Positions 2,999 through 44,556 of a stretch of DNA of 59,734 nucleotides are shown here, one piece after another. The notes under the pieces are model-generated. The model searched no databases. It was not told where the DNA came from and was given only the letters and a program-made list of their open reading frames with translations. Numbering within the stretch: the stretch's first letter is position 1; each line of letters begins with the position of its first letter. A program made the position numbers and the translations under genes. Origin of the DNA: an uncultured Syntrophales bacterium (GTDB lineage: Bacteria; Desulfobacterota; Syntrophia; Syntrophales; JAAYKM01); the NCBI GenBank assembly GCA_964408155.1, contig CAYOYJ010000001.1:1-59734 (forward strand), read 5' to 3'.

Positions 2999-3068
2999 GC
3001 GAAATATACCCCGTTCCTTTCCGGTGAGGCGAGGGACGGCATTCTCAGACGAAAGGAGGTGAGAGCAA

Positions 3069-4006: not shown

Positions 4007-4089
4007 GGGTTGGGGGGAACAAAGTATTTGGAGTTATGCCGGTATTGAGACGATTTTCATCAAAAATTCAGTGATTTTGAGGCTATTTT

Positions 4090-7057: not shown

Positions 7058-7103
7058 GGAGGCACGCATACAGCCCGACGACCGTACGCTCAGACTCCCC
7101 TAA

Positions 7104-7841: not shown

Positions 7842-9009
7842 TACTTCGCCAAGGCCTAATCGGATTTCTGATAATGGTTTCCGGGTGTTTATTCGTTACG
7901 ACTGAAACTGTGCCTGCATATACAGCATCACCGAAGGAAAAGGCATTAGTGACGGCTAAGGTCCCGAAGGCCCCTTTTAGCCTTTCGGAAACTTTGGAGA
8001 TATTGTCCCCCCCGATCATGGCCTCCAAATCGGCCTGTACTTTTATCATCCAGGCCATGAATTTTGTTTCTTTATCCGGATTCTCCTGCCATTTCTCCGC
8101 AAAATTTTCATTAGGGTTGACGGGGTTGAGAATCTGCACAATCCCATTTGTCCGCTTGATGTATTTCGGCATCTGCTTGACGATGTCGGTGAGGGCCTCG
8201 ATAAGGTCGGCCTGGTTATTGTAGGCCAGAGCCGCAAGTGTCGTTATGATGATAGAAATGGGGCGGTTGTCCGGATCATCAAGGAACGCTATGTCTCTGT
8301 GCCTTTTCAATAGCTGAATGGACCGCTGAAGCGGCGTTTTGACGAGATATTCAGGGACATCCTCGATGCCGGCGCGCATGCTATCCGCAATCATCTTCCT
8401 TCTGGCAGTGTACTGGACCTTCATCCGCTCCTTAAACCATGAGGCATACCCGCGTGGATTGCTGCGTGGCCAGTCATCGTCGTATTGATCGTAATTCCAG
8501 AAGGTTTTATCGGTGAGGCAGATCGCATATTTGGCCCATTCCGCTGGAATGCCTATCCCCTTTAGTGATTCTATGAATACTGTCTCCTCCGGGATGGTCG
8601 GGAGTATATCCATATGAAACTGAGCGCCATCGGCGTATTGTATTGTCCAGCAACGCCTGCCTTCTTTCTTGTCAAGCATCTGTACATACTTTTTATTTTC
8701 TTTTAACCTGTCCCCGATCATTTGCTTTAATTCTTTTTGCGTGACCTCTTGCTTTGAGAGCTCAAGCTGGCACACCAAGTCGATATCGTATTCATCGTTG
8801 TCGCTGATGGGCTTGACCACTGTACCCAGACGGAATGACCCCTGAGGGTATATCTCGGGGCTGTACGGGGCAAGCGGTGAGTCATCCTTGCCGAGCCATT
8901 CCCCGATAGCCTTGTAGTGTCCCTCTGCTTCTTTGTACCTGGTTTCGGAGATGTCGATGTTGTCTGTCAGGTTTTCCAGTGCTTTGTTAACTTGCTGTCT
9001 ATACTCCAT
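7831..9009 (-). CDS. cGAS/DncV-like nucleotidyltransferase (CD-NTase)
   Basis: Pol-beta NTase core: YPQGSFRLGT (GS), EYDIDLV (DxD) and FHMDILP (third Asp). About 390 aa. Lies between the patatin effector and the E2-like gene with overlapping start/stop codons. Confidence 0.75.
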   Translation of the reverse strand: MEYRQQVNKALENLTDNIDISETRYKEAEGHYKAIGEWLGKDDSPLAPYSPEIYPQGSFRLGTVVKPISDNDEYDIDLVCQLELSKQEVTQKELKQMIGDRLKENKKYVQMLDKKEGRRCWTIQYADGAQFHMDILPTIPEETVFIESLKGIGIPAEWAKYAICLTDKTFWNYDQYDDDWPRSNPRGYASWFKERMKVQYTARRKMIADSMRAGIEDVPEYLVKTPLQRSIQLLKRHRDIAFLDDPDNRPISIIITTLAALAYNNQADLIEALTDIVKQMPKYIKRTNGIVQILNPVNPNENFAEKWQENPDKETKFMAWMIKVQADLEAMIGGDNISKVSERLKGAFGTLAVTNAFSFGDAVYAGTVSVVTNKHPETIIRNPIRPWRSNEY

Positions 9010-9887
9010 GATCCGCTTCCTCCTTGATTGATTGATGTATCGGTAGATATTCGGCCGCGTTATGCCCCATGAACGTTTCTCTGAATGCTGGTGAATAGAG
9101 CCGGCTTTCGTGCGCCGCCTTGCCCAGCAAATTCTTTTCGGATAGTTTATCTAAAGCAAACATTTTGTCGGGGACCTTGGGGTCTATTCGGAGGACCTTT
9201 TCTTTGCCTAGAAGGTGCATCGCCTGGGTGTTTGCACCGATGCTTTGGCCTCTCATAACGACATTCACCGCATCCGTTTTCCACTGCCATAGTCCTCCCA
9301 GGTCGAGTTTCTTTGACCGCCCCTTGACCTCATCCGTTGTTCCCAGGCTCAAAACACGGATATCTCCAGGGGAGATGCCAAGCAATCCGATCGCCTCGGT
9401 GATGCCAACCATGATAGGGTTGTTAGCCCAGACGCCTCCGTCCACGAGGCGTATGTCATCAATAAGCTGACAACAGGGGAAGAAGGTGGGTGCGGCACTG
9501 GTTGCTAACGCAATCTTCCAAATGGGCTCCTTATAATCCCTCCGCAGCCGCTCATGATGAGGGGTCTTGAAGAGGTAAACGTCATCGTCACCGATATTAT
9601 AAGAGGGGATCACAAGGCGCTTCTTGCTTTCACCCAGAAGCTGTTCTCCGAAGCAGCCTTGAAGTGCTTTCCTGAGAGGTCCTTGGCTATACTTATTCCG
9701 CAGCCCGTGACGTAGCCCATGCCAGATTTGCCTCGGCATTTCGGGGCGGTTCCCCGCGAATATGTTCCTGGCTTCGGTGACATAAAAGTGGACAATGTCT
9801 TTAGGCCTAATGCCAACTCCCAGCGCCAGTGCAATGATTCCTCCTGTCGAAGTTCCGACGATGAGATCGAAGTGATCCGTGACCTTG
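8999..9887 (-). pseudogene. capV: patatin-like phospholipase CBASS effector, C-terminal 294 codons (gene split by transposon)
   Basis: GTSTGG (GxSxG) and LVDGGVWANNP (catalytic Asp) are present, but the oxyanion-hole DGGG motif is missing. It is found in the fragment at 21792-21930. The ORF-track N-terminus (9888-9982) is IS sequence, not patatin. Confidence 0.85.
9883..9887. repeat. target-site duplication CCTTG (left copy)
   Basis: CCTTG directly abuts the IS terminus TGTTGGCGGCG at 9888. The same 5-mer directly follows the opposite terminus at 21792-21796. Confidence 0.8.
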
Positions 9888-10178
9888 TGTTGGCGGCGCC
9901 TTAGAAGAGCCAAAAGCGGCGGAGCTGTCCCACTGTATTTTGGAGATTGGATAAAGATATCCCTTGCCGCGGGATTGTTCAAAGAGCGGAGAATCCCCTG
10001 TCCCCGGATTCGGGGCTGTTCGTTAGCGATGTAGAGATTCCGGTTTACGCGAAGACTCGCTATTTTTTGCTGCGATAAGACCTCCCGTCAAACGTCAGAA
10101 AGCGGCCGTTGAGGCTGAGGCGATCCAGAATCGCCGAAGCGGTGGCCGTATCGAAGATTTTTCCCCAGTCGGAGGGGA
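9888..10178 (-). repeat. 291-bp solo IS21-family end (IR plus 3' end of istB), identical to 18776-19066
   Basis: Base-by-base visual comparison shows identity with 18776-19066 (offset 8888). It diverges at 10179 (T versus C at 19067), where IS66-derived sequence begins. Confidence 0.85.
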
Positions 10179-10222
10179 TCAAGTACTTATATTAAATATT
10201 TGCGCTTTTTTCTCTCTTTTTT

Positions 10223-10585
10223 TCATGTTTTTCCAATGGATTTTTCGACTGACGAATGGTTCCCAACATAGCGCTTTTCGATCCGCTTCGGCACGATGCC
10301 TTCCAATAGCAAGGTTAGATCGCGCCGGTCAATGCAACCGCTTCTGTCGGGCACGATAAACTTTCCTTCTTCCAGGCGCTTATACCACAGCGCCAGGCCA
10401 TCCTGATCCCAATAGAGAAGTTTAACCATTTTGCGGTTGCCGTTGACGAAAACGAATAAGGAACCGGATAAGGGGTCCATCTCCAGTTCGGAGCGGATGA
10501 TGCCACAAAGGGCGTCGAAAGATTTGCGCATGTCGCAGGCACCCCGGTAAAGATAAATGCGCGTGGCGGCGGTCAGGGATATCAT
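10223..10585 (-). CDS. tnpB: IS66-family accessory protein TnpB
   Basis: IYLYRGACDMRKSFDALCGIIRSELEMDP...LFVFVNGNRKMVKLLYWDQDGLALWYKRLEEGKF is the characteristic IS66 Orf2 sequence pattern. Confidence 0.85.
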   Translation of the reverse strand: MISLTAATRIYLYRGACDMRKSFDALCGIIRSELEMDPLSGSLFVFVNGNRKMVKLLYWDQDGLALWYKRLEEGKFIVPDRSGCIDRRDLTLLLEGIVPKRIEKRYVGNHSSVEKSIGKT

Positions 10586-10887
10586 CGGGAACTCAAAGCG
10601 GTCAAAACAGATCGAAGGGTCGGAAAATCAAATCCACGGGAAACTTCGATGTAAAGATTTCCGGCAATAATACGAATACCGGTTTCCTTCCCGGAAGCGG
10701 AAACCGAAGGACTCAGTTCGATAAATCCCTGCCTGTTCATTTGCCGTTTTGAAATCCGGCGGCGCCAGGCATAAAATATGTTGGTGCGTATCTGCTGATT
10801 CCGGCAATAATCGGCAATGCTCAAACCGCTGGTCTTTTGTTTTTCGATGATGGTGTTCCAGTGCGCATAGCGTTCTTCGATGGTCAT
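10582..10887 (-). CDS. IS66-family Orf1 (TnpA-like HTH protein)
   Basis: About 100 aa with an HTH-like SIADYCRNQQIRTNIFYAWRRR. ATGA-type overlap with tnpB. The third IS66 gene (DDE TnpC) is absent: only about 15 codons remain before the junction at 10179. Confidence 0.7.
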   Translation of the reverse strand: MTIEERYAHWNTIIEKQKTSGLSIADYCRNQQIRTNIFYAWRRRISKRQMNRQGFIELSPSVSASGKETGIRIIAGNLYIEVSRGFDFPTLRSVLTALSSR

Positions 10888-10901
10888 GACTCCGCCTCTA
10901 G

Positions 10902-11867
10902 TTGAAATATTTTCTCAATGCTGGCGGGTGTCATACCCCGGCTGACGAAAAAGGGAAAGATGGGTGGGCAAGACGGTTACTCCGGGAAGGCTATCGCACT
11001 GCCGTCGATGTGGATTTGTCGAAGTTCTTCGACACAGTCCATCATGATGTTCTGATGCGCCGTGTGGCGGGAAAGGTTCCTGACAAACGGGTTTTACGCC
11101 TCATCGGGAAATACCTGCGGGCCGGAGTCATGGTAAATGGCCGCCTACAGGAAACCCCTCTGGGAGTTCCTCAGGGCGGGCCATTGTCGCCATTACTGGC
11201 CAACATCATCCTGGATGATCTGGACAAAGAGCTTGAGAAACGCGGACACCGGTTTGCCCGTTATGCCGATGACTTTATCATTTTGGTGAAAAGTCATCGG
11301 GCGGGACAGCGGGTGATGGGAAGCATCAAACGCTTTCTGGAGCAAACGCTCAAACTCAAGATCAATCCGGAGAAAAGCCGAGTCGTCCCAACAAATCAGG
11401 CAGCCTTTCTTGGCTTCACATTCCGTGGAACCAAGATTCGCTGGTTGGAAAAGGCCTTCCGTGAATTCAAGCGAAGGGTCAAGGAACTGACCGGGCGATC
11501 CTGGTTTGTATCGATGGACTACCGGTACAAGAAGCTTGCCGAATACCTCCGTGGCTGGATGAACTACTTCGGAATATCGGAATACTACATACCGATTCCC
11601 GAAATAGATCACTGGCTGAGAAGACGGTTGCGCATGTGTTACTTCAAACAGTGGCGTAGAGCAAAAACCAAGGTTCGGGAACTTCGCAAACTGGGAACAT
11701 CGCTACATGCTGCTATATCTGTGGCAATAAGCCGCAAAGGGCCGTGGCGCTTGGCGAAAACGCTGGCAACGCAAACGGGCATGACCAACAAGTGGCTCAA
11801 GGATCAAGGGCTTCTGTCTGTCAAAGAGCTGTGGGTTCACATTCACTACCCGGCCACGGCCCGGTAA
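10902..11867 (+). pseudogene. group II intron reverse transcriptase/maturase, 5'-truncated
   Basis: RT motifs from about block 3 onward (VDVDLSKFFDTVHHDVLM, GVPQGGPLSPLLANI, FARYADDFIILV) plus the maturase X region are present. RT blocks 0-2 are missing, and the first ~25 codons look unrelated. Confidence 0.75.
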
Positions 11868-11877
11868 TCTCTGTGAA

Positions 11878-11945
11878 CCGCCCGGTGCGGACCCGCATGC
11901 CGGGTGGTGTGGGGGCTGGGGGAGAAAAACCCCCGGCTACCCGAT
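11878..11945 (+). ncRNA. group II intron domain V/VI-like 3' end
   Basis: A 30-nt hairpin, CCGCCCGGTGCG-GACC-CGCA(TG)CCGGGTGG, carries a 2-nt bulge on its 3' strand as in domain V. A second hairpin, CTGGGGG-AGAAAAA-CCCCCGG, and an unpaired A follow. It lies directly downstream of the RT ORF. The 3' boundary is approximate. Confidence 0.45.
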
Positions 11946-11965
11946 TGGGCTGGTTGGTTCAATAC

Positions 11966-12778
11966 TCATGCATCTATCCCAGTTTCGATGCGCTTGGTGA
12001 GTTCTTCGATAATTGTTGTAGGTAAGCTGATGTTATCGTTTCGTGCTGCTCTTTTCATCAACTCGCAACCCCACTTCCACGTCTCACGGTAAGCATGCCA
12101 AAGTCTTGCTTGATCGAGGTCGGCTGTACAGGAACGGTAGCGCCCATATGCTTCCACGGAGATATCTTTTTCCAGCCCCTTTGATGGGGTTGGCCAATGC
12201 TCTGTTGTTCCTTCTGCCAGACGGACCAATTTGAGTAGATTACTGTGACTGTCGCTCAATAAGGCCCAGGCTCTTGCAAATTCTCCTCTTGCCAGCACGT
12301 TTATTCCAAACAGCACCAGGTTTATGAAGTTAGCCGCAACCGACATTACCTCGGTGGTCGTATTGCGATCGGGAGGATTCCCGACAAAGGGGCGCAGATA
12401 TCTTTCGATTGCGCCTGTTCGATCGACAATGATCGTTGACTCTAGAGAAGGGAACCAGGCATATCCTTGCCATGTTTCGATAATCGGAATTCTTGATGCC
12501 GGTTCGAAATGAAACTCACCCCGGACCAGGTTTGTAAAAATCGCAGTATGATGTCCATAGTCATCGGCAAAATAAAGCTCAAGCGTTTCAATCTGTGCAA
12601 CCCAGTGTTCCTGATCGATATTGGGGAAACTCTCATCTTTAAAGAATAATATAAATTCAATATCGGAGAATCGGTCGCCCTCTCCAGTTGCAAATGAACC
12701 GAACATAAACGCGCCCTCAATACGGGCATCTTGCACACAAAGCTCGCGGACGCGCTCTATCATTTTCTCCTGCAACAT
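11966..12778 (-). CDS. Lnu(B/F)-family lincosamide nucleotidyltransferase-like protein
   Basis: MLQEKMIERV..., FGSFATGEGDRFSDIEFILFFK, NLVRGEFHF, GINVLARGEFARAWALLS and GLEKDIS parallel LinB/Lnu signatures as I remember them. ATG 12778 is preceded by GGAGG. The longer ORF-track start (12886) overlaps the neighbouring gene. Confidence 0.7.
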   Translation of the reverse strand: MLQEKMIERVRELCVQDARIEGAFMFGSFATGEGDRFSDIEFILFFKDESFPNIDQEHWVAQIETLELYFADDYGHHTAIFTNLVRGEFHFEPASRIPIIETWQGYAWFPSLESTIIVDRTGAIERYLRPFVGNPPDRNTTTEVMSVAANFINLVLFGINVLARGEFARAWALLSDSHSNLLKLVRLAEGTTEHWPTPSKGLEKDISVEAYGRYRSCTADLDQARLWHAYRETWKWGCELMKRAARNDNISLPTTIIEELTKRIETGIDA

Positions 12779-12816
12779 AAAAACCTCCGGGGAAAAGCTG
12801 TTCTCGTTCGCATTGC

Positions 12817-13575
12817 TCAGGTACGTAAAACGGCATCTGCACACAGCCAGAAAAGCTTCTCGCGTATGGCGGTTCTTGATTGCCATGAACGTTCATCCCA
12901 TTCTAAACAGCTCAAATCGTCACCGCCATATAATACCTGCCCTAGGACTACACCACGAAATTGAGCAACTGCCATCATCCCAGCGCTTTCCATTTCTACT
13001 GTAAGACAGCCTTCTTCTTTTCTCATGGCAATTCTATCCGGTGTCTCCCTGAAAGGCGCATCGGTCGTCCAAGTTTTACCGATATGATACGGAACGTTCG
13101 TATTGCTCAGGGTGTTTACAAGGGCCTTCACCCCCGCTTCGTGCGCAAACACTTCTCGACTTGGCTGCAGGTAATGATACGAAACGCCTTCGTCGCGAAT
13201 TGCGCTGGATACAACAACCAAGGTACCAACCGTTATAGGCTTGTCAAGAACTCCACAACCTCCACAAACCATGAATTTACGACAACCATAAGCGATGACC
13301 TTTTCGAGCAGGCCTGCAGCCAGTGGAGCGCCGACACCTGGATGGAAGAATGCCAATCGCTGGTCACAGTATTCAATTTCATAAATGGGATGAGGTCCAT
13401 CCTCCCAATAGTCTGTTACCAATACCTTTGCATTGTGCTCGATTACCACTTTATCGATCACTTCTCTGAAAAAACAGATTACACAAAGCTCAGGCATGTC
13501 CAGAGGTTTGATGACCTTTGAAGGTTCAATAAAAGCTATACGAGTTGAGTCGTATTCAAGAATAGGAAATGTCAT
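12817..13575 (-). CDS. nucleoside phosphorylase (PNP/UDP family)
   Basis: FHPGVGAPLAAGLLE, MVCGGCGVL, RDEGVSYHY and TVEMESAG motifs are typical of uridine/purine nucleoside phosphorylase-fold enzymes. Confidence 0.7.
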   Translation of the reverse strand: MTFPILEYDSTRIAFIEPSKVIKPLDMPELCVICFFREVIDKVVIEHNAKVLVTDYWEDGPHPIYEIEYCDQRLAFFHPGVGAPLAAGLLEKVIAYGCRKFMVCGGCGVLDKPITVGTLVVVSSAIRDEGVSYHYLQPSREVFAHEAGVKALVNTLSNTNVPYHIGKTWTTDAPFRETPDRIAMRKEEGCLTVEMESAGMMAVAQFRGVVLGQVLYGGDDLSCLEWDERSWQSRTAIREKLFWLCADAVLRT

Positions 13576-13712
13576 ATTTATAAATCCTTGGTATAGCCCA
13601 ACGAAAAGCTCACCGGGAGCAAGCCAGCGGCTTGCGATCCGGTGCAGCGCCTTGTTGGATAATGCATTTCCAATTACTTATGATGATACTACTCCATGTA
13701 AATGATTCCCAT

Positions 13713-14192
13713 TTAGTTCACTGTTTTATTTGCCTCTTGAATGGGGATATCCTTTTTGTCTAATTCAAAGTAATATTCTTCTTCATATCCAAGTACCCAG
13801 GGAAGCGCTAATAGCGGTGGCAGTATTAATCTATGGACATATAATACATCTTTTTTAACACTAATTATTTTGTCTATATATCCATCGCATTTAAGGAGAA
13901 AAGACGTTTCTGTCCCAGATGGACTTCGATCCCAATAATTATACGGCGTCATTCCAAGCAACTTCCCTTCAGGTGAATATATTTTGACTTTCTTGATAAG
14001 ACCTTGCTTTCTTTGGAAGTGAGTATAGGAAAGCCACACTTGTATGTCAAGGAAATCTTGACCACAAAATGTAGGGTGCTGCTCTAATGACCGCGTTGAA
14101 GGTACTCTGCAACATCCGTCCTTATGGTAAATCTGCTCACCTTTTGATCTGTTCACCCGCCATAAAGGTCGTTTCAGTCCCAATTCGGACAA
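13713..14192 (-). CDS. hypothetical protein (159 aa), AT-rich
   Basis: Intact ORF with composition distinct from its neighbours. I recognise no motif. Confidence 0.4.
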   Translation of the reverse strand: MSELGLKRPLWRVNRSKGEQIYHKDGCCRVPSTRSLEQHPTFCGQDFLDIQVWLSYTHFQRKQGLIKKVKIYSPEGKLLGMTPYNYWDRSPSGTETSFLLKCDGYIDKIISVKKDVLYVHRLILPPLLALPWVLGYEEEYYFELDKKDIPIQEANKTVN

Positions 14193-14231
14193 ACCTCTCC
14201 GGCACGCCTTATTTTATTTTTTAAAAATGCG

Positions 14232-15578
14232 TTATGACTGAATGTATTCATCCCAGGTGTATTCTGGGTCGCCGTAGATAGTATCGTTGTGTGGTTGGAT
14301 TTGGAGATTGGCAGCGGCGTATTCCCGGTTTGGCGGGTCATGGATTTTCGGCGGCGGCCTTGATCTGACCAGCCAGATGCCCAAATGTTTGAGGATGTCG
14401 CGGATGACCTGCGCATCTTCGATGAAGCTGATGATCCGCATTTTCCCCTGACACTTTGGACAGACCAGGGGATCAACTTCGTATATCTTCTGGATCAGTC
14501 GTGCCCAACTTTTCCTGAATGCCTTTTCGTTTCCCTGTGGTTCAAGGATGCAGGGGACGGCATCATCTTTGCCTGCCTTCTGCCGTTTTCCCCGTGCGAC
14601 GTTGCTGTAATATCCGTAGTACCGCACCATCTGTTCGCCACGATTCGGGATGTGCGTACACATTGCGGCCAGCCATTCCATCGCGGGGAAGACCTTGTTT
14701 GTCTTTCTGTCCTTTCCCGTATAGACAACAGTCCCCTCCTGTTCCAGATACTGCATCCGCTCCTGAGAGAAGGATGCCCTAATGATATAACGCGCCAGAT
14801 TTTCCATAGCTGTATCATCAGTGGGCGAGATGCGGTTGCCGCAGAAGACGTGAAAACCGGAATGTTTCCATGAAGAGTGCATGGCGATCAATTCGCGGGT
14901 AATTTTCCCTTTGGCGAGAAGCATTTTGAAAACATTGTGCCGGAAGATGGCCTCCAGCTTTTTCAGTTCCAGAGGCGGAGCAACGCGGAACATGCCCTTT
15001 TCGCCATAGAAGCAGCCATCGGTTACGAGAATGTGGCAGTGCGGATTGAATCCAAGGAAATCACCAAACGTCTGCATGGCGATGACAGCACCGGGGATTG
15101 GGGTATTTTCAGGGACGGCATCCTGAATGAAGATCTTCAACGATTCCCAGGCGCAGCGGCTGAGGGCGGCAAGAAGCTTTCGATCATACAGAAAATAGCG
15201 ACGAAGAATCTTCGGGATGCTAAAGACAAAATGCCGGTGAGGAATCTTTTTGAGGACTTCCACACAAAGCCGTTCTCCGAATTCCACCACGCGTTTCTGA
15301 TGGCAGGACGGGCAGAAGTGCCTGCGCTTACAGGAGAATGCCAGTAAGTATTCGTGTCCGCAGTCTTTGCATTTCACACGGGCAAAACCGTGTTGCAGAT
15401 CGCCGCAATCCAGATAACGGTAGATCACCTGTGCGATATAAGGCCGCCAGAAACCATACTGTCGTGAGAACTGTTCGTCATAGTCCTGCACAAAGGTTTC
15501 AAAATAATCCTCTACACAATGGTAATAATCCGAATCTTGCGGGTGGCGGGGCCGGTAAACGGCGGCTGGCAATGGCAT
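14232..15578 (-). CDS. IS91-family (rolling-circle, Y2) transposase
   Basis: N-terminal zinc-binding domain (VKCKDCGHEYLLAFSCKRRHFCPSCHQKR) followed by a HUH-type body (NPHCHILV). The length of 448 aa is typical for IS91/ISCR transposases. Confidence 0.85.
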   Translation of the reverse strand: MPLPAAVYRPRHPQDSDYYHCVEDYFETFVQDYDEQFSRQYGFWRPYIAQVIYRYLDCGDLQHGFARVKCKDCGHEYLLAFSCKRRHFCPSCHQKRVVEFGERLCVEVLKKIPHRHFVFSIPKILRRYFLYDRKLLAALSRCAWESLKIFIQDAVPENTPIPGAVIAMQTFGDFLGFNPHCHILVTDGCFYGEKGMFRVAPPLELKKLEAIFRHNVFKMLLAKGKITRELIAMHSSWKHSGFHVFCGNRISPTDDTAMENLARYIIRASFSQERMQYLEQEGTVVYTGKDRKTNKVFPAMEWLAAMCTHIPNRGEQMVRYYGYYSNVARGKRQKAGKDDAVPCILEPQGNEKAFRKSWARLIQKIYEVDPLVCPKCQGKMRIISFIEDAQVIRDILKHLGIWLVRSRPPPKIHDPPNREYAAANLQIQPHNDTIYGDPEYTWDEYIQS

Positions 15579-15663
15579 GTCTTCCTCGCTTCACAGGGTG
15601 GATAAATCCATCCCGAAGCGATAAGACATAGTAGAACGATCGTTCTATTGTCAAGAGAAATAT

Positions 15664-15786
15664 TCAAATAGTATTATCATTACATCCTTGTAATTTTTGA
15701 CCCCGGACAGTTTTCACGTCATGCCCGGCTTCTTGAAAAAGCCCTTGAGTTCTTGCCCCAAAATTTTCATCAAGCTTAAATTTCAA
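15664..15786 (-). pseudogene. PIN-like (DUF5615-type) toxin gene fragment, about 40 codons
   Basis: LKFKLDENFGARTQGLFQEAGHDVKTVRGQKLQG matches the N-terminus of the DUF5615 partner of DUF433 proteins. A TTGA overlap joins it to the DUF433 fragment. It is truncated next to the IS91 end. Confidence 0.3.
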
Positions 15787-16016
15787 CCTATTGCCTCCAC
15801 TGGGATTTCTACGTAACGTTCCCTGGCCATTTCCGCCCCGTAAGCTAATGCGGCCTGAATATCTTCAACTTCCAAATGGGGGTATTCAGTCAAAATTTCT
15901 TCTATAGTCATTCCACTTGCTAAAAAATCCAGGATAAGCGACGTTGGGACAGCAGTGATTGGCGTTGTTACAAAGTTTTTCCCTAAAGTAGCGAAATGAA
16001 TCATATTCCGTATCAA
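15783..16016 (-). pseudogene. DUF433-like antitoxin-type gene, N-terminally degenerate
   Basis: The C-terminal half, ILDFLASGMTIEEILTEYPHLEVEDIQAALAYGAE, is DUF433-like. The N-terminal part overlaps an RNase D-like fragment (15886-16101: ILGIDTEYDSFRYFREKLC) read in another frame. Confidence 0.4.
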
Positions 16017-17014
16017 TGCCCAGTATCGAAGCCTGTCGCAAATATTCGGCGGCGCGTTGAGCGGTTTCAGTGGTATTCACCAATAGCCAATCCGTATTCA
16101 TGGAAAGCTACTTAACCGAAACGGGAATTTAATGCTATAAAAATGATGCATCGAGGGATAAGAGCTGCCTACCTGTTTAGTTTCATTAAACTATTCTGCT
16201 TTACAAAATACCAGGATATGTTACTTTTACCGGCAATCGGAAAGAGTGAGGATCGTCACTACGGGTCATGAAAAAGCAATGGCTATTTCTTATCATCGTA
16301 ATATTTTTGGGAGGCTGTAATATGCAAAACAAATTTCTTTATTTTCCCGGCGGGGAGCGGCCGTCTGCGGAAATGCTTGCTGCCGAAAATATGTCGCTCA
16401 GGCAGGCGACGGGGACGGATTATCGGGGTTTGATCGCGGCGGGTGATGCCCTCGCGCCCAATGGCAAAATCATCTTTTTGTAGAAGTAAGCATTATGCAA
16501 CGCCGAATAGGACATGAGGCAGCGCGGCTTTAAAACAGGACGTTTTTAGCCGTCGTCCCTTGATACCAGCCCTGAAGGATGCCGCCAGGATGGCGGTATC
16601 CGGTTAAAATATTACCGTGCTCCGGATAGGATTCCGGAGACATCAAGGGGAACCGGGGATGTGCCCCGGTCCGGTGGGTTCCAAGGGATTGACGGCCCAA
16701 TCCCTTGGCCTTAGAGGGTGCAGGGAGAGCGGGTCGCTTCTCCCTGTCGGCATCCTGTGATTTCGTACCTTACATATTACCTCCGTTTAAGGGGCTGCCA
16801 TGAACTCTCAAAAGAAAAATATCCAGCGGAGCACAAGTTTCAAATGTCTGTATCAAAACTTTTACGCTAAATCATCCAATTCCCTCATCCGATACTTTAC
16901 CCAATATTACAATCCAAACAAATCGATAAACTTTCAGCAGGAAAATATTGATAATTATGCGAATTACTCGAAAGACTATCTAAAAATGAAACAATTTACG
17001 AAAGGACATATCTC

Positions 17015-17827
17015 ATGAAACTTTCCCGGCCAAAAATATTAGGGATTGTAAATATAACCGAAGACAGTTTTTCTGATGGCGGACTTTACCTGGACTCCGA
17101 TCAAGCCCTGAAAAAATCATTCCAGCTTATGACCGACGGAGCGGATATTATTGACTTAGGTGCCGCTTCCAGTAATCCCGCTACCAAAGATATTGAACCC
17201 ACAGTAGAAATTGAGCGCTTAATCCCCATCGTTAACCAGTTACTTACTAAAAACATTCCAGTATCAATCGATACCTTCAAATCAAGCGTTCAGCAATATG
17301 CTTTGAACAAAAAAATTCAATATATAAATGATATCCAGGGATTTCCCTATCCTGAAATATACCCCAAATTGGCGGCATCCGGTTGTAAACTCATTCTAAT
17401 GCATTCTGTCCAGCGTTTAGGACCGGCCACGATTGTCGAAACAGACCCGGAAAAAGTATTTGCCGGAATGATTGATTTCTTTACACAGCGCCTTGATGCC
17501 CTTCAAAATGCGGGAGTTTCACTCAACCGGATTATCTTAGACCCGGGGATGGGATTTTTCCTAGGTTCCAATCCCGAATCATCAATCTATGTAATAAAAA
17601 ACATCACCCGGTTGAAAGATCACTTCAACTTACCCATTTTAGTTTCAGTTTCTCGAAAATCGTTTTTAGGGAACATCGTAGACCGCGAGGTGAAGGAGCG
17701 AGGGCCGGCCACATTAGCGGCAGAGATTTATCTGAGCTATATGAATGTGGACTATATCCGTACTCATGATGTAAAATCTTTGAACGATGCCTTGAAAGTA
17801 CTTGTAACATTAAATTCAGCCAAGTAA
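17015..17827 (+). CDS. Sul-type (sulfonamide-resistance-like) dihydropteroate synthase
   Basis: ILGIVNITEDSFSDGGLYLD, DIIDLGAASSNP, YINDIQGFPYPEIYP, KLILMHSVQR, ILDPGMGFFLGSNPESS, VSVSRKSFLG and DYIRTHDVKSL. By eye these lie much closer to Sul1/Sul3 sequences as I recall them than to chromosomal FolP (DPGFGF). Confidence 0.8.
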   Translation: MKLSRPKILGIVNITEDSFSDGGLYLDSDQALKKSFQLMTDGADIIDLGAASSNPATKDIEPTVEIERLIPIVNQLLTKNIPVSIDTFKSSVQQYALNKKIQYINDIQGFPYPEIYPKLAASGCKLILMHSVQRLGPATIVETDPEKVFAGMIDFFTQRLDALQNAGVSLNRIILDPGMGFFLGSNPESSIYVIKNITRLKDHFNLPILVSVSRKSFLGNIVDREVKERGPATLAAEIYLSYMNVDYIRTHDVKSLNDALKVLVTLNSAK

Positions 17828-17890
17828 TTCTTAGACGTAAAGCAGATATTGAAAATATTTGGAGGATTAAATATACTAAATGTTGGCCTG

Positions 17891-18385
17891 CTATTTCCAA
17901 CTATTTTCTTCAATAACACCTTTGAATTTTAGACTTTGATAATGGACTGCCAGCCAATAAAAGTAGGGTAGGGATATCAGAAATCGAAAGAATGGATTCC
18001 AGTGAATATATTTTAATAACCCGATTTGATGAAAGACCTCATCATTTGCCCCATTGAGCAATGCAAAAAAGACAATATAAGTATAATAAGCATACCCTAC
18101 TTTTTTATCGGGCAAAAAATGGATAAATATTATTATGGCCGGTGCCCAAGCCAAATCAAGAAACAACGGCAAATTAAAAATAGTAAAAGGGTATACATGC
18201 TGGTATGTTAATAAGTGGAAAATATTTGAAAGAATAAATATGATTATGGTGGTAAGTATTGTACCCCAAATTATTCCAAACCAGAACAATGATTTAATTT
18301 CTTTCCGGTTTAGAAAAATTACCAACAACAATAATAGGCCGAGTGGAAAAGCAAAATAGTATAGAACCAAAGGATCTGTTAACAA
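17891..18385 (-). CDS. hypothetical polytopic membrane protein (164 aa)
   Basis: Several hydrophobic helices. AT-rich composition like the adjacent sul-type gene. Confidence 0.5.
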   Translation of the reverse strand: MLTDPLVLYYFAFPLGLLLLLVIFLNRKEIKSLFWFGIIWGTILTTIIIFILSNIFHLLTYQHVYPFTIFNLPLFLDLAWAPAIIIFIHFLPDKKVGYAYYTYIVFFALLNGANDEVFHQIGLLKYIHWNPFFRFLISLPYFYWLAVHYQSLKFKGVIEENSWK

Positions 18386-18400
18386 TTTATCATGACTCCT

Positions 18401-18742
18401 TTAATCTTCGAATACTTTGTCAAATCGTTGCAGCAAATATCCCAGCACTATCCCCCACAAAACAGCTCCCAACAGATTTGATAAACGTCCCGGAAAAGTT
18501 TGGCCGATGATTAAAGGATTTAACCTAAAAAGGACCGCAATTGACCGGATGAAAAACCAAAGCAACGCGCCATATAAAGTCGCTTTAATCATAATCCCTT
18601 TGGAAGAAATTTTGATTAAAAGATGGGCAAAAATAGCCCCCAAAAAACCATCCCAAATAATTTGGATAATAAAATCGGTAATTATCTGAAAACCGGACTG
18701 GGACTTTTCCCCGCTAGTTAGGACAGCCACCCAGTCCAACAA
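18401..18742 (-). CDS. hypothetical membrane protein (113 aa)
   Basis: Three to four hydrophobic segments. Its start lies 34 bp from the IS21 terminus at 18776. Confidence 0.45.
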   Translation of the reverse strand: MLDWVAVLTSGEKSQSGFQIITDFIIQIIWDGFLGAIFAHLLIKISSKGIMIKATLYGALLWFFIRSIAVLFRLNPLIIGQTFPGRLSNLLGAVLWGIVLGYLLQRFDKVFED

Positions 18743-18947
18743 ACGTACATTGGAGACCCGGAAAAAGTAATAATCTGTTGGCGGCGCCTTAGAAGAGCCA
18801 AAAGCGGCGGAGCTGTCCCACTGTATTTTGGAGATTGGATAAAGATATCCCTTGCCGCGGGATTGTTCAAAGAGCGGAGAATCCCCTGTCCCCGGATTCG
18901 GGGCTGTTCGTTAGCGATGTAGAGATTCCGGTTTACGCGAAGACTCG

Positions 18948-19649
18948 CTATTTTTTGCTGCGATAAGACCTCCCGTCAAACGTCAGAAAGCGGCCGTTGA
19001 GGCTGAGGCGATCCAGAATCGCCGAAGCGGTGGCCGTATCGAAGATTTTTCCCCAGTCGGAGGGGACGAGATTCGTGGTGATAATGGACGTGGAGACTTC
19101 CGAACGTTTGGAGATAATCTGAAACAGAGCGTCCGCCTGTTCCTTGGAGGGGATCACATACCCCAGTTCATCCAGACACAGGACATGGACGCGCGCATAA
19201 TAGTCGATCAGCGAATAAATGTTTTTGGCTTTGGCCAGTTTGGCCGTCAGATCGAATAAAGTCGTAAAAACCGTTTGTTTTCCTTTCATCACGGCATCGT
19301 GGCAGAAGGCGGCGGCGATATGAGATTTTCCCACGCCTGTCGGGCCGATCATCACCAGATTGGCGGGGCTTTTGAGCCAGTCGGTATTCATAAACGCCAG
19401 AATCTTGTCCCGGGGAACCTTCGGGTTAAATTTCCAGTCAAAATCAGACAGCAGCTTGACGCGCTTCATGCCGGACATTTTCAAAAGATATTCGATGCGG
19501 CGATTTTCTCGTCTTTGATGCTCCTGTACAAGAAAGGAATGAAGCGTGGCCTTTTGTTCCTCCGAGAACGTCTCCATATCGGTCAAAAACCGGAAGTGCC
19601 TCCATAAATCAGATAAGGTCATCATAGCGGGCCAACTCCCTCCTTTCAT
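18948..19649 (-). CDS. istB: IS21-family helper ATPase IstB
   Basis: Walker A GPTGVGKSH, Walker B LCLDELGY, and the DnaC/IstB layout. The true start is probably MMTLSD (about 19625), overlapping the istA stop. Confidence 0.9.
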   Translation of the reverse strand: MKGGSWPAMMTLSDLWRHFRFLTDMETFSEEQKATLHSFLVQEHQRRENRRIEYLLKMSGMKRVKLLSDFDWKFNPKVPRDKILAFMNTDWLKSPANLVMIGPTGVGKSHIAAAFCHDAVMKGKQTVFTTLFDLTAKLAKAKNIYSLIDYYARVHVLCLDELGYVIPSKEQADALFQIISKRSEVSTSIITTNLVPSDWGKIFDTATASAILDRLSLNGRFLTFDGRSYRSKK

Positions 19650-21075
19650 AGTCGATCTGCAACAGCTGGGTGTTTTGTGGATAAACGGGCTGCGGATTAT
19701 TCGCCTGAGGTGTCAGAAGATTCTGCAGGTAGGACACCTGGAAGGTGCCCAGCGCATTGGCCTGACGAACGGCCGACAGGAGCATGGCTTTGGAAACGAT
19801 CTTGAGGAGCTTAAACAGGACATAAGCGTCTTTTACAGGATCGGCGCCTTGGGCTTCGGCGCGCCTCAGGAAGAGCGCAACCGCCTCGTCCATACGCGTC
19901 ATTAACTGCAAAATCCGTTGATCTTTAAAATGCGGTGTGATCGAAATGAGCTTTTCCCGATGCAGGGGATGCTCGATCGTCTGATTTTTCAGAAAGGAGC
20001 GTTGATGGGTGGCAACCGTCCGATGGCCGATGACGATCTCCAAGCGCCGGGGATAAACCGTCAGAGTGCAAGACTGATGACTGTAACCGGACGGCAGGGA
20101 GTAACGGTTCGTTTCAAAATGGACAAACCCCGTTGGCGTAACCGTAGCCATTTTCAGGCGATAGGCCCGATAAGGGATTTGCGGCAATGTTTTGAGTTTT
20201 TCTTCCGGCAATAAATCCAGCGGCGCCTTCCCGGTGGACCGGTGAACCGTCTTGTTGCGCTCTTGACGCCAGAGGGTGACTTTCCGGTTGAGATCATCCA
20301 TATCCGTAAAAGCATTCACCGATATAAATCCGCCGATATCCCGGATCACTCTTTCCACACGGCCTTTTTCGTTGGCTCTTCCGGGTGTGCAGGCATAAAG
20401 AGAAAAACCGTAATGCCTGGCGAAGTCCAGAAACTGACTGTTGAAGGTAATCTCCGGCCGTCGTTTGATCACAACGCTTTTGAGATTGTCATAACGGCCG
20501 CGGCGGGGAATGCCGCCTGTCTCCCGGAAAGCTTCGATATGCCCTTCCAGAAAAAACTCCATCGACTGCCGCGGATAAAACCGGCAATACAGATACCGGC
20601 TGTAAGACAAGATCAACACAAAGCCGTAGGCCGTGCCGAACGGAAAAGAGCGCTGCATCCAATCGACCTGCGCTTCCTCGCCCGGAAGGAACGTCAACTC
20701 GTGGTACATCCGTTTCTTTTTCCGGCGAAACGGCCGGGTGTATTCTTTCACCGTGGTGTAACCACCGGAAAATCCATACGTCTGCAGCCGGTCATAAATC
20801 TGGCTGGCTTTCAGCGACGGATAGGCCTCATACCAGTCTTCAATCAGGCGCGCATACTCGTCAAGGATGCTTTTACGCGGCTTGCGCAGGATTTTTCCCT
20901 GCCGGATCAACCGGGTAACCTTTGTTCGAGACAAGCCCAGGGCATCGGCCACCTGGCGAATGCTCAAGCCTTCGACTTCCTGCAAATGACGAACCTGATT
21001 CACTAAATGCTCTTCGTCCATATCCCGATCCCCCTTTTTGCTCTGGTTCGCTTGTCTGCTCGTTTGTCTTTCCAT
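19609..21075 (-). CDS. istA: IS21-family transposase IstA
   Basis: N-terminal HTH (LSIRQVADALGLSRTKVTRL) and DDE integrase core (EEAQVDW..., RYDNLKS..., PGRANEKGRVER). The start may be the internal MDEEH at 21021. Confidence 0.9.
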   Translation of the reverse strand: MERQTSRQANQSKKGDRDMDEEHLVNQVRHLQEVEGLSIRQVADALGLSRTKVTRLIRQGKILRKPRKSILDEYARLIEDWYEAYPSLKASQIYDRLQTYGFSGGYTTVKEYTRPFRRKKKRMYHELTFLPGEEAQVDWMQRSFPFGTAYGFVLILSYSRYLYCRFYPRQSMEFFLEGHIEAFRETGGIPRRGRYDNLKSVVIKRRPEITFNSQFLDFARHYGFSLYACTPGRANEKGRVERVIRDIGGFISVNAFTDMDDLNRKVTLWRQERNKTVHRSTGKAPLDLLPEEKLKTLPQIPYRAYRLKMATVTPTGFVHFETNRYSLPSGYSHQSCTLTVYPRRLEIVIGHRTVATHQRSFLKNQTIEHPLHREKLISITPHFKDQRILQLMTRMDEAVALFLRRAEAQGADPVKDAYVLFKLLKIVSKAMLLSAVRQANALGTFQVSYLQNLLTPQANNPQPVYPQNTQLLQIDYERRELARYDDLI

Positions 21076-21147
21076 CTTTTCCTGATGATGTTTTCTTCTG
21101 ATGCAGACCGCGGGGATCGGTTTAAATCATCCATCCTCCTTTCGTCT

Positions 21148-21300
21148 ATCTCGTCTTGTATCACCCGCCATGCGCCGCAAACGTAATGCCGTTAAGCCTT
21201 CGCAGGATGATCTCGTCTTGTATCATCCCTGTTTTATCCTCCGGGATCAGCAAAACGTACTTCCGGATTGGCTTTGAACGGGGTATCTCGTCTTGTATCA
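21148..21300. repeat. three direct copies of ATCTCGTCTTGTATCA
   Basis: Identical 16-mers at 21148-21163, 21210-21225 and 21285-21300 (spacing 62 and 75 bp), inside the IS21-family element upstream of istA. Confidence 0.85.
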
Positions 21301-21514
21301 TCGCGCCCGAAGTTTGCGTCTTCTTCCTGAGACGCCATGCTTTGATCTCCTCATAGCGTCCCCGAAAGTAGCCCTCATTCCTGGACAGCCATCGCCGCTG
21401 CGCTTCCTGTTTCCGTTTCTTTCTGCATTCCGGCCGGCCGCAGGCCTTCTGTTTCACCCCCGCTCGTCTGTCCGGAATAAAATACCGCCCGCAATACGCG
21501 CATCTCTTCCTCAA
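21161..21514 (-). CDS. small Cys-containing basic protein (117 aa) carried inside the IS21-family element
   Basis: CAYCGRYF...KACGRPEC looks like a zinc ribbon followed by an Arg/Lys-rich stretch. Two of the 16-bp repeats fall inside it and encode MIQDEI twice. Coding status is uncertain. Confidence 0.35.
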   Translation of the reverse strand: MRKRCAYCGRYFIPDRRAGVKQKACGRPECRKKRKQEAQRRWLSRNEGYFRGRYEEIKAWRLRKKTQTSGAMIQDEIPRSKPIRKYVLLIPEDKTGMIQDEIILRRLNGITFAAHGG

Positions 21515-21791
21515 AGGCAGCCTCCCTCTATCTTAATCCCCCATAGGGGCGGCTACCTTTCTACCGGCGTCTTATTCTTTTGCAAATATGGAATTGAAAA
21601 TCAGAAGGTTACAAACAAAATGCTTTTTAAGAAAAAATCCCCGCCGTCCAACACCCGGCGGCGGTTACCCACAGCCATCCCGAAGCCATGCTCCGCCGAA
21701 GGGCCGCTTCGGGATGGCTGTGGATAACTGCCTTGGCTCAGCACTAAAACCACCACCGCTATTTTTGGTCTAATTTTTTCCGCCGCCAACA

Positions 21792-21796
21792 CCTTG
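21792..21796. repeat. target-site duplication CCTTG (right copy)
   Basis: Immediately follows the IS terminus ...CGCCGCCAACA and is identical to 9883-9887. Confidence 0.8.
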
Positions 21797-21930
21797 ATGC
21801 CGAAATCATCTTCGAAGTGGGAAAGGATGGCAGCGGAAAATAGACCTTTTATCCCGCCACCATCGAGAGAAAGAATCTGGAAATGTTTGTTTTCGTTTGA
21901 GGCCTTACCGTTTATCGGCTTGATCATCAT
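21792..21930 (-). pseudogene. capV: patatin-like phospholipase CBASS effector, N-terminal 46 codons
   Basis: MMIKPINGKASNENKHFQILSLDGGGIKGLFSAAILSHFEDDFGIK carries the patatin oxyanion-hole motif DGGGIKG. RBS GAGGAA upstream. The reading frame then runs into IS sequence; the rest of ORF 21601-22008 is read-through. Confidence 0.85.
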
Positions 21931-22644: not shown

Positions 22645-22649
22645 AATGA

Positions 22650-38060: not shown

Positions 38061-38069
38061 AATGCTCTC

Positions 38070-44547: not shown

Positions 44548-44556
44548 GGCGTGCTC

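What the first reader, a model, noticed from the sequence alone, without database searches (positions are those of the whole stretch)
9883..21796. CBASS effector gene capV cleanly split by an 11.9-kb resistance-gene transposon
The patatin ORF at 8999-9887 lacks the DGGG oxyanion motif. The missing 46 codons (MMIKPING...ILSLDGGGIKG...DDFGIK) lie 11.9 kb away at 21792-21930. The intervening DNA starts TGTTGGCGGCG and ends CGCCGCCAACA, and it is flanked by CCTTG on both sides. Removing 9888-21796 gives ...DDFGIKVTDHFDLIVGTSTGG..., an in-frame patatin of about 340 aa. The immune effector is therefore insertionally inactivated, while the cyclase, the E2-like gene and the regulators look intact. This is a recent event with no visible decay.
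Basis: seen in the sequence. Interest (0 to 1): 0.65.

Follow-up and report, generated by a model that had tools for sequence, protein, structure and literature searches.

The report
IS21-bounded transposon splits CBASS capV
A phage-defence gene (the CBASS phospholipase effector capV) has been cut in two by an 11.9-kb mobile element. The element is built on an IS21-type insertion sequence and carries likely sulfonamide- and lincosamide-resistance genes. The event is real and recent, but it is an ordinary kind of event.

Summary
CCTTG flanks both ends (9883-9887 and 21792-21796). The ends are TGTTGGCGGCG and its reverse complement. Removing 9888-21796 restores a 340-aa patatin that is 339/340 identical to intact alleles found in three other metagenome assemblies, each with a single CCTTG. 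PADLOC identifies an otherwise intact CBASS: phospholipase effector, CD-NTase, E2, CapH and CapP.

- 18776-21791 is a complete 3,016-bp IS21-family IS (istA, istB and a conserved 117-aa ORF).
- 9888-10178 is a 291-bp, 100% identical direct repeat of its istB-side end.
- Between them lie 8,597 bp of mosaic cargo: a truncated IS66, a group II intron remnant, an lnu(F)-like gene, a phosphorylase, an IS91-family transposase, and a Sul3-like DHPS block.

Both "resistance" genes score below the curated Sul3 and Lnu(F) cut-offs, so they are candidates only.

Independent contigs from several samples confirm every junction. One contig joins the full IS directly to the cargo. No contig spans the left repeat from capV into the cargo, so a simple 3-kb IS insertion with the cargo elsewhere is unlikely but not excluded.

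Verdict: a new member of a known kind (an IS21-bounded pseudo-compound transposon inactivating a defence gene). Interest is modest.

The parts
21792..21930 (-). capV 5' fragment: codons 1-46, including the DGGG oxyanion motif. Its first 5 nt (21792-21796, CCTTG) are the right copy of the target-site duplication.
8999..9887 (-). capV 3' fragment: residues 47-340, including GTSTG. Bases 9883-9887 (CCTTG) are the left copy of the target-site duplication.
9888..10178 (-). 291-bp remnant of a second IS21-family copy. It holds the istB-side terminal inverted repeat, 172 nt of non-coding end and the last 119 nt of istB. It is 100% identical and in direct orientation to 18776-19066.
   Evidence: (D1)
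10179..10980 (-). IS66-family remnant: the first 802 nt of the element, with tnpA at 10582-10887 and tnpB (orf2) at 10223-10585. tnpC is missing. The join to the IS21 remnant at 10178|10179 is blunt.
10981..11950 (+). 3' part of a group II intron: the C-terminal part of the reverse transcriptase/maturase, and domain V-VI RNA at 11876-11945. It is cut at 10980/10981 by the IS66 insertion.
   Evidence: RVT_1, GIIM; RF00029, 45.1 bits
11966..12778 (-). lnu(F)-like lincosamide nucleotidyltransferase homologue (270 aa from Met37 of the ORF)
   Evidence: LinB-like_C, 4.3e-42; Lnu(F) 336 bits, below the cut-off of 450
12817..13575 (-). PNP_UDP_1 family phosphorylase-like gene
14232..15578 (-). IS91-family Y2 (HUH) transposase
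   Evidence: (NF033538, 177.5 bits, above the cut-off of 125)
15783..16016 (-). DUF433 small ORF
16949..18775 (+). Block found 100% identical in a second genomic context (L014, L016, L018). It holds the Sul3-like DHPS (17015-17827, +), a 164-aa membrane ORF (17891-18385, -), and a 148-aa ORF whose 5' end is cut off by the IS21 end at 18775|18776.
18776..21791 (-). Complete IS21-family insertion sequence, 3,016 bp: istB at 18948-19649, istA at 19609-21075, a conserved 117-aa ORF at 21161-21514, and ends TGTTGGCGGCG...CGCCGCCAACA.
7831..9009 (-). CBASS CD-NTase (cyclase), intact
7104..7841 (-). CBASS E2-only accessory protein, intact
   Evidence: PDLC00871, 1.7e-85
22291..23516 (+). capH (22291-22644) and capP (22650-23516) regulators, divergent from capV, intact

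Best explanation
**What it is.** capV is the first gene of a capV-cyclase-E2 CBASS operon with divergent capH/capP. It was hit by an IS21-family transposition event that made a 5-bp CCTTG duplication. The inserted DNA is an 11,904-bp pseudo-compound transposon made of three parts:
- a 291-bp remnant of one IS21 copy, which supplies the outer istB-side end;
- 8,597 bp of cargo;
- one complete IS21 copy, which supplies IstA, IstB and the other outer end.

**Cargo.** The cargo is a junkyard of earlier events: an IS66 inserted into a group II intron and later truncated, an lnu(F)-like gene, a phosphorylase-like gene, an IS91-family transposase, and a Sul3-like DHPS block whose right edge is an older IS21 insertion into a 148-aa membrane-protein gene.

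**Consequence.** CapV is split between its oxyanion motif (DGGG) and its nucleophile motif (GTSTG), so the effector is dead. The cyclase and E2 are also separated from the operon's promoter by 11.9 kb.

**Shown:** the disruption, the duplication, the empty site, the architecture, and the physical link between the full IS and the cargo.

**Inferred:** that the whole 11.9 kb moved or integrated through the two outer IS21 ends. The route could be composite transposition, IS21 tandem-mediated replicon fusion followed by deletion, or homologous integration of a cargo circle into a simple IS21 insertion. Loss of CBASS function and any resistance phenotype are also inferred.
For: **Disruption and empty site**
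- Junctions and in-frame restoration.
- Empty sites with a single CCTTG in L002, L005 and L006, whose CapV is 99.7% identical.
- CBASS gene identities.

**Architecture**
- The 291-nt 100% direct repeat 9888-10178 = 18776-19066.
- IstA is above the NCBIfam IS21 cut-off (227 vs 160), and IstB matches Pfam IstB_IS21 at 5e-47.
- The same IS occurs at about 20 other sites at 83-98% identity. A full copy in L036 (3,010 bp) has a 5-bp duplication, GCTTG/GCTTG.
- Published IS21-family work reports ends made of multiple repeats, 5-bp duplications, and action on single and tandem copies: PMC10122671.

**Independent contigs for each edge (k-mer breaks fall exactly at the repeat boundaries)**
- capV-3'|IS end: L001, L003, L004, L007-L009, each ending at 9917.
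- Cargo|IS end: L011-L013, L015 and L017, each ending at 18805.
- IS remnant|IS66: L024, L026, L027.
- capV-5'|IS through istA: L021, ending at 19037.
- L133 is 100% colinear with 21698->17821. This joins the full IS, through the repeat, to the cargo.
Against: - No independent contig spans the left 291-bp repeat from capV into the cargo. A scan for any JGI contig holding the whole repeat found none. That link therefore rests on the window assembly and on elimination.
- No second site was recovered where the whole unit is flanked by its own duplication. In the sewage assemblies L134 and L135 the same IS has a different flank on its istA side, but the other end was not found.
- Subterminal repeats within the ends were not detected by a simple word search.
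- Loss of function and polarity on the cyclase and E2 were not tested. The promoter scan was uninformative.
Confidence: 0.82

Rival explanations
1. Only the 3,016-bp IS21-family element is inserted in capV. The 8.6-kb cargo plus the 291-bp remnant lies elsewhere, for example as an 8,888-bp circle or at another locus, and the assembler threaded it into capV through the 291-bp repeat.
For: - The assembly graph through a 291-bp perfect repeat is ambiguous in principle.
- No contig spans capV-3' -> repeat -> IS66.
- Short-k assemblies all break at the repeat.
- The 5-bp duplication fits a simple IS insertion equally well.
Against: - L133 shows the full IS copy contiguous with the cargo across the repeat.
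- L021 crosses the istA-side tip without branching, so in that sample the full IS has only the capV-5' flank.
- With the full IS joined to the cargo on one side and to capV-5' on the other, capV-3' can only connect to the remnant copy.
- capV-junction contigs and cargo contigs were recovered from the same three run-accession series, and from three of the same runs (SRR15734598, SRR15734599, SRR31227862).
Confidence: 0.12
2. The structure arose in two steps in place. First a simple IS21 insertion into capV created the CCTTG duplication. Later a circular molecule carrying the cargo and a 291-bp IS21 fragment integrated by homologous recombination. Alternatively, IS21 tandem-mediated replicon fusion was followed by deletion of most of the left copy. 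In either case a ready-made composite transposon did not hop in.
For: - The two repeat copies are direct and 100% identical, as Campbell-type integration would leave them.
- IS21 is known to fuse replicons, leaving the donor flanked by direct IS copies (references in PMC10122671).
- The remnant|IS66 join is a blunt internal-to-internal junction, so a deletion or illegitimate join occurred at some stage.
Against: - Nothing distinguishes this from unit transposition. The end product and the duplication are identical.
- No sample was found with the simple IS insertion alone.
- In the sewage assemblies the identical remnant|IS66 junction coexists with a different IS flank. This hints that the unit existed before it reached capV.
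Confidence: 0.3
3. The element is a Tn7-like or Mu-like transposon, as the TGT...ACA ends with a 5-bp duplication might suggest.
For: The terminal TGT/ACA and the 5-bp duplication are shared with Tn7 and Mu.
Against: - There are no TnsA/B/C or MuA/B genes in the insert.
- The only DDE transposase and AAA+ pair are IstA and IstB, and they match the IS21 models.
- The 3,016-bp unit recurs on its own at many sites.
Confidence: 0.01

Closest known systems
IS21-family insertion sequences (IS21, IS5376) and the compound structures they form
   Same: - An istA DDE transposase followed by an istB AAA+ helper.
- Ends beginning TG...CA.
- A 5-bp target duplication.
- Many dispersed copies.
- Direct-repeat IS copies bracketing foreign DNA, as after IS21 replicon fusion.
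   Different: - At 3,016 bp it is longer than typical members, because of a 716-bp leader that carries a conserved 117-aa ORF.
- One bracketing copy is reduced to a 291-bp end fragment fused to a truncated IS66.
- Multiple subterminal repeats were not demonstrated.
Type II 'short' (E2-only) CBASS with a patatin effector (CapV) and CapH/CapP regulators
   Same: The gene set and order are capV, CD-NTase, E2, with divergent capH-capP. All match the PADLOC models over their full length. The cyclase's nearest solved relatives are a cGAMP synthase (9woo) and CdnG (8hsb).
   Different: The effector is split by the insertion. The cyclase is not DncV-like: V. cholerae DncV is absent from the PDB hits.
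Mobile sul genes next to IS91/ISCR elements (sul1-sul4), especially Sul3
   Same: - The DHPS aligns without gaps to Sul3 at 59.5% identity.
- It has an identical ILDPGMGFFLGSNPE stretch, including the Phe equivalent to Sul3 Phe177, which is needed for sulfonamide discrimination (PMC10328974).
- It is flanked by IS91-family transposases in two different contexts.
   Different: - It scores below the curated Sul3 cut-off (354.6 vs 475 bits).
- Its closest named relatives are chromosomal DHPS of Sporomusaceae (71-72%).
- Its phenotype is untested.

Membership tests
CBASS (patatin/CapV effector type, E2-only accessory) | A CD-NTase (SMODS) gene adjacent to the effector | tested here: met
   7831-9009(-) matches Pfam SMODS and DncV-like_NTFase and the PADLOC cyclase PDLC00770 at 7.6e-140. 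It overlaps the capV stop by 11 nt.
CBASS (patatin/CapV effector type, E2-only accessory) | A patatin effector with the DGGG oxyanion motif and the GxSxG nucleophile motif in one polypeptide | tested here: not met
   In the window the two motifs are 11.9 kb apart. After in-silico excision the feature is met: a 340-aa product matching PDLC00757 at 2.5e-111 over its full length, 339/340 identical to the intact alleles. The gene is therefore a disrupted member.
CBASS (patatin/CapV effector type, E2-only accessory) | Accessory E2 and CapH/CapP regulators | tested here: met
   PADLOC E2 PDLC00871 at 1.7e-85, capH at 7.4e-21, capP at 4.3e-59.
IS21 family | An IstA DDE transposase and an IstB AAA+ helper in tandem | tested here: met
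   IstA scores 227.3 bits on NF033546 (cut-off 160). IstB matches Pfam PF01695 at 5e-47, and scores 193.3 bits on NCBIfam IS21_help_AAA, just under its cut-off of 200.
IS21 family | Terminal inverted repeats ending TG...CA and a short (4-8 bp) target duplication | tested here: met
   11-nt perfect ends TGTTGGCGGCG. The duplication is CCTTG here and GCTTG around an independent full copy in L036.
IS21 family | Multiple transposase-binding repeats within each end (L1/L2, R1/R2) | tested here: inconclusive
   A 12-mer search allowing 2 mismatches found only the tip match. An indel-containing look-alike (TGTTGGACGGCGG) lies about 130 nt inside the istA-side end.
Compound (composite) transposon | Two copies of one IS bracket the cargo | tested here: inconclusive
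   There is one full copy and one 291-bp end remnant, direct and 100% identical. It is better called a pseudo-compound structure.
Compound (composite) transposon | A target duplication flanks the whole unit, and the unit is seen at more than one site | tested here: inconclusive
   A duplication around the whole unit is present. A second site is only hinted at by L134, L135, L024 and L027, and the other flank was not recovered.
Sul (sulfonamide-insensitive DHPS) | Score above a curated Sul1-4 model cut-off | tested here: not met
   Sul3 354.6/475, Sul2 260/575, Sul1 238/600, Sul4 116/600. The protein does pass the generic DHPS model TIGR01496.
Sul (sulfonamide-insensitive DHPS) | The alpha6 Phe (Sul3 Phe177) required for discrimination against sulfonamides | tested here: met
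   The local sequence ILDPGMGFFLGSNPE is identical to Sul3 in a gapless alignment. The residue's role is taken from PMC10328974. The numbering is inferred from the alignment.
Sul (sulfonamide-insensitive DHPS) | Confers sulfonamide resistance | not testable with these tools
   This needs an MIC or complementation assay.
Lnu(F) lincosamide nucleotidyltransferase | Score above the curated Lnu(F) cut-off | tested here: not met
   336.1 bits against a cut-off of 450. The LinB-like C-terminal domain matches at 4.3e-42.
Tn7-like transposon | TnsA/TnsB/TnsC genes | tested here: not met
   No such domains were found in any ORF of the insert.

The most novel reading that the evidence does not exclude
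The insertion may be selected rather than neutral. In V. cholerae, folate depletion by sulfamethoxazole triggers DncV-CapV CBASS and kills the cell (PMC10653837; bioRxiv 10.1101/2023.02.27.530311). A transposon that brings a Sul3-like DHPS and at the same time destroys capV would protect twice against sulfonamides in wastewater. That would link spread of a resistance gene to loss of an abortive-infection effector. Against this, the published effect is specific to DncV-like cyclases, and this cyclase is CdnG-like or 9woo-like, not DncV-like.
Probability: 0.04. Interest if true: 0.7.

Novelty: new member of a known kind. Interest (0 to 1): 0.3.

Why it matters
This is a clean natural example of a defence-system effector knocked out by a mobile element with likely antibiotic-resistance cargo. 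Filled and empty alleles both exist in public wastewater and digester metagenomes, so the frequency of the knockout could be followed across samples. It shows one way that abortive-infection systems are lost. It also flags two things that may deserve their own study: an uncatalogued IS21-family element with a conserved third ORF, and a Sul3-clade DHPS that has been moved by IS91- and IS21-type elements and may be a new mobile sul gene. As biology, transposon insertion into a defence gene is expected, not surprising.

Tried and rejected
- **Tn7/Mu reading of the TGT...ACA ends with a 5-bp duplication.** Rejected on gene content.
- **Known resistance transposon.** Megablast of the whole insert against 72,556 plasmids matched only about 45-85 nt of group II intron domain V, so it is not a catalogued plasmid element.
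- **A contig spanning the whole 291-bp repeat.** A pattern scan of JGI metagenomes found none.
- **Look-ups of the capV-3' fusion ORF** with three alternative starts found nothing. The 233-aa IstB was not on record. The 225-aa version worked.
- **Host identification.** A scan of GTDB representative genomes with CapV gave a best hit of only 54% (a Nitrospiraceae MAG), so the host species is not represented. IstA relatives with names are from Syntrophales and Thermodesulfobacteriota MAGs at 58-68%, which is only a weak hint.
- **Rfam at gathering threshold over 14 kb** found nothing. The group II domain V-VI hit appeared only in the focused search.
- **Promoter/terminator scan** of the left junction did not exceed shuffled expectation for promoters, so no claim is made about expression of the cyclase.
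- **Antifolate-CBASS link.** Considered but not supported, because the cyclase is not DncV-like.
- **Literature searches.** A search for sul5 found nothing relevant. A search for IS insertions in capV found only a V. cholerae review.

Full report
**1. Observation**

- On the + strand, ...GTGACCTTG|TGTTGGCGGCGCC... lies at 9883-9898.
- ...CCGCCGCCAACA|CCTTGATGCC... lies at 21780-21799.
- The minus-strand ORF ending at 8999 carries the patatin nucleophile motif (GTSTG) but not DGGG.
- The 46 N-terminal codons, with DGGG, are at 21930-21792.
- Deleting 9888-21796 (11,909 bp, which is the 11,904-bp element plus one CCTTG) gives a 340-aa ORF. It reads ...HFEDDFGIK|VTDHFDLIVGTSTGG... across the join.

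**2. Is the restored gene a CBASS effector?**

The restored protein matches Pfam Patatin (E=6.5e-30). It matches the PADLOC CBASS phospholipase effector model PDLC00757 at E=2.5e-111 over profile positions 4-326 of 331.

Its neighbours are:
- a CD-NTase at 7831-9009 (SMODS/DncV-like NTase; PADLOC cyclase 7.6e-140);
- an E2-only accessory protein at 7104-7841 (PDLC00871, 1.7e-85);
- divergently, capH at 22291-22644 and capP at 22650-23516.

The cyclase's nearest solved relatives are a cGAMP synthase (9woo) and CdnG (8hsb). V. cholerae DncV is not among the hits.

The restored CapV is colinear across the join with homologues at 41-55% identity in MAGs and genomes of many phyla.

**3. Empty site and independent junctions**

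A look-up of the exact cyclase protein returned contigs of two kinds.
- **Empty site.** L002 (JGI 3300010351), L005 (ENA ERZ795063) and L006 (JGI 3300009682) are 98.4-99.7% identical to the window. They join 9887 directly to 21792 with a single CCTTG. Their CapV is 339/340 (338/339 for L005) identical to the restored protein.
- **Filled site.** Six Logan contigs from different runs are 100% identical and all stop at 9917. That is 30 nt into the element, the position where a k=31 graph must break if the element's end is repeated.
- **Right junction.** L021 (SRR15734604) runs 26461->19037 at 100% identity.

**4. What the insert really is**

The key new finding is a 291-nt perfect direct repeat: 9888-10178 = 18776-19066. 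TGTTGGCGGCG occurs exactly three times in the window: at 9888, at 18776, and reverse-complemented at 21791.

*The complete IS.* Bases 18776-21791 form a complete 3,016-bp IS21-family element.
- IstA at 19609-21075 scores 227 bits on NF033546 (cut-off 160).
- IstB at 18948-19649 matches Pfam IstB_IS21 at 5e-47.
- A 117-aa Cys-rich ORF lies in the 716-bp leader.

A degenerate scan for either tip found the same IS at about 20 other sites in sludge, digester and sewage assemblies, at 83-98% identity. One full copy (L036, 3,010 bp) is flanked by GCTTG on both sides. The 117-aa ORF is kept full-length at 85-99% amino-acid identity in nine of those copies. A 5-bp duplication, ends made of repeats, and activity on single and tandem copies are published IS21-family properties (PMC10122671).

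*The remnant.* Bases 9888-10178 are the istB-side end of a second copy, truncated at its nt 291.

*The cargo (10179-18775).*
- An IS66 element present only as its first 802 nt, with tnpA and tnpB but no tnpC. Its true end at 10980 and the truncation point at 10179 were defined against seven full copies elsewhere.
- The 3' part of a group II intron into which that IS66 had inserted: RT/maturase domains and RF00029 at 11876-11945. L025 shows the same intron::IS66 junction with a full IS66.
- An lnu(F)-like nucleotidyltransferase, a PNP_UDP_1 phosphorylase-like gene, an IS91-family Y2 transposase and a DUF433 ORF.
- A block at 16949-18775 holding a DHPS and two small membrane ORFs.

That last block occurs 100% identical in L014, L016 and L018. 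There its right side continues into an intact 148-aa gene and a thioesterase gene. Its left side abuts a different IS91-family transposase. The junction at 18775|18776 is therefore an older IS21 insertion into that 148-aa gene.

The remnant|IS66 join at 10178|10179 is blunt and has no microhomology.

**5. Is the cargo really inside capV?**

A 291-bp perfect repeat makes the assembly path ambiguous. The two possibilities are:
- (i) capV3'-R-cargo-R-IS-capV5', as in the window;
- (ii) capV3'-R-IS-capV5', plus a separate R+cargo circle or locus.

Every edge is seen independently, and contigs break exactly k-1 nt into R.
- Logan contigs (k=31) break at 9917, 18805, 10149 and 19037.
- Megahit k141 and k127 contigs break at 10038/18926 and at 10052/18940.

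Two results favour (i).
- L133 (SRR33737692) is 100% colinear with 21698->17821. It crosses R and the tip, so the full IS is physically joined to the cargo.
- L021 crosses the istA-side tip without branching, so the full IS has only the capV-5' flank in that sample.

The remaining end, capV-3', can then only attach to the remnant copy. The link from capV-3' through R into IS66 is nevertheless not spanned by any independent contig. I put (i) at roughly 0.8-0.85. In either case capV is disrupted by an IS21-end insertion.

**6. Mechanism**

*Shown:*
- an IS21-type insertion with a 5-bp duplication between the DGGG and GxSxG motifs of capV;
- a complete istAB copy at one end and a matching outer end at the other.

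*Inferred:* the outer ends were used together. Three routes lead to the same product:
- transposition of a pseudo-compound transposon;
- IS21 tandem-mediated replicon fusion, which leaves direct IS copies around the donor (Schmid et al. 1998, cited in PMC10122671), followed by a deletion from nt 292 of the left copy into IS66;
- a simple IS insertion followed by homologous integration of an R+cargo circle.

In the Copenhagen sewage assemblies, the identical IS has a different flank on its istA side, an IS5/IS1182-like transposase fragment (L134, L135). The same samples hold the identical remnant|IS66 junction (L024, L027). This hints that the unit pre-existed and sits at another site there. 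The other flank was not recovered.

*Consequence (inferred):* the effector is dead, and the cyclase and E2 are cut off from the operon promoter.

**7. The "resistance" label**

*The DHPS.*
- It passes the generic DHPS model but falls below all the Sul cut-offs (Sul3: 354.6 against 475).
- It aligns without gaps to Sul3 crystal-structure chains at 59.5% identity.
- It shares the ILDPGMGFFLGSNPE stretch, including the Phe equivalent to Sul3 Phe177, which is required for sulfonamide discrimination (PMC10328974).
- Its closest named relatives are chromosomal DHPS of Sporomusa ovata (72%, with Asn at that position) and Propionispora (71%).

*The nucleotidyltransferase* scores 336 bits against the Lnu(F) cut-off of 450.

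Both are plausible but unproven resistance genes. The whole insert has no near match in PLSDB plasmids.

**8. Comparison and novelty**

This is a disrupted member of E2-only CBASS with a CapV-type effector. The insert is a new IS21-family pseudo-compound transposon. Transposon inactivation of a defence gene is an expected kind of event, so the finding is a new member of a known kind.

The most novel reading is that loss of CapV together with gain of a sul-like gene jointly protects against sulfonamide-triggered CBASS killing, as shown for DncV-CapV in V. cholerae (PMC10653837; bioRxiv 10.1101/2023.02.27.530311). It is weakened because that effect is specific to DncV-like cyclases and this cyclase is not one.

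**9. Context**

The window is a defence island. It holds a BREX-like cluster (BrxL, a PglZ-like protein, a PglX-like methylase, DUF4007), a DEAD-box helicase, and a phage-like replication module.

Noticed in passing
window 17015-17827 (+); block 16949-18775; loci L014, L016, L018: A Sul3-clade DHPS, 59.5% identical to Sul3 and below the curated Sul3 cut-off, keeps Sul3's ILDPGMGFFLGSNPE stretch, including the Phe needed for sulfonamide discrimination. The same 1,827-bp block is 100% identical next to a different IS91-family transposase in other samples. Its nearest named relatives are chromosomal DHPS of Sporomusaceae. It is a candidate new mobile sul gene.
   Followed up: partly
window 21161-21514 (-), 21148-21302, 21660-21732: The IS21-family element has a 716-bp leader with a 117-aa Cys-rich ORF (no Pfam, NCBIfam or PADLOC match). 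The ORF is kept full-length at 85-99% amino-acid identity in nine other copies, so it is probably a third IS gene. It contains three 18-nt direct repeats that encode a repeated MIQDEI peptide. A 27-nt hairpin, 93% complementary, lies nearby.
   Followed up: partly
window 36012-49231 (-): A BREX-like defence cluster: BrxL (Lon-like ATPase plus MIT_C), a weak PglZ-like 785-aa protein, a 1,375-aa protein, a DUF4007 protein, and a PglX-like Eco57I-type methylase. CBASS therefore sits in a defence island.
   Followed up: partly
window 29065-31902 (+) and 52752-58348 (+): A 945-aa DEAD/DEAH helicase with an archaeal-helicase domain 4, and a phage-like replication and recombination module (PD-(D/E)XK nuclease, AAA_24, an SMC-like ATPase, Phage_rep_O). 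These suggest the island lies in or next to a prophage-like or other mobile element.
   Followed up: no
L134 1-414, L135 1-401 (ENA sewage assemblies ERZ22666022 and ERZ22666087): The same IS at 100% identity has its istA-side tip next to ...GCAGAGATAAT inside an IS5/IS1182-like transposase fragment, not capV. The same samples hold the cargo with the identical IS21-remnant|IS66 junction (L024, L027). This may be a second location of the unit.
   Followed up: partly
window 10178|10179: The junction between nt 291 of the IS21 remnant and nt 802 of IS66 is internal to both elements and has no microhomology. How it formed (a deletion or an illegitimate join) is unexplained.
   Followed up: partly
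L023 (JGI 3300010353) 152-8227 vs window 61-4000: A related contig has a similar gene set (Peptidase_C11, SLT, HU-like and PLD-like genes), a patatin-SLT fusion protein, and a full copy of the same IS66 at another site. The IS66 is therefore active in this community, and the region left of CBASS is variable.
   Followed up: no
L010 (JGI 3300009669): A contig 99.8% identical to the window ends exactly at 9887, the insertion point. This may mean that filled and empty alleles coexist in that sample and break the assembly there.
   Followed up: no
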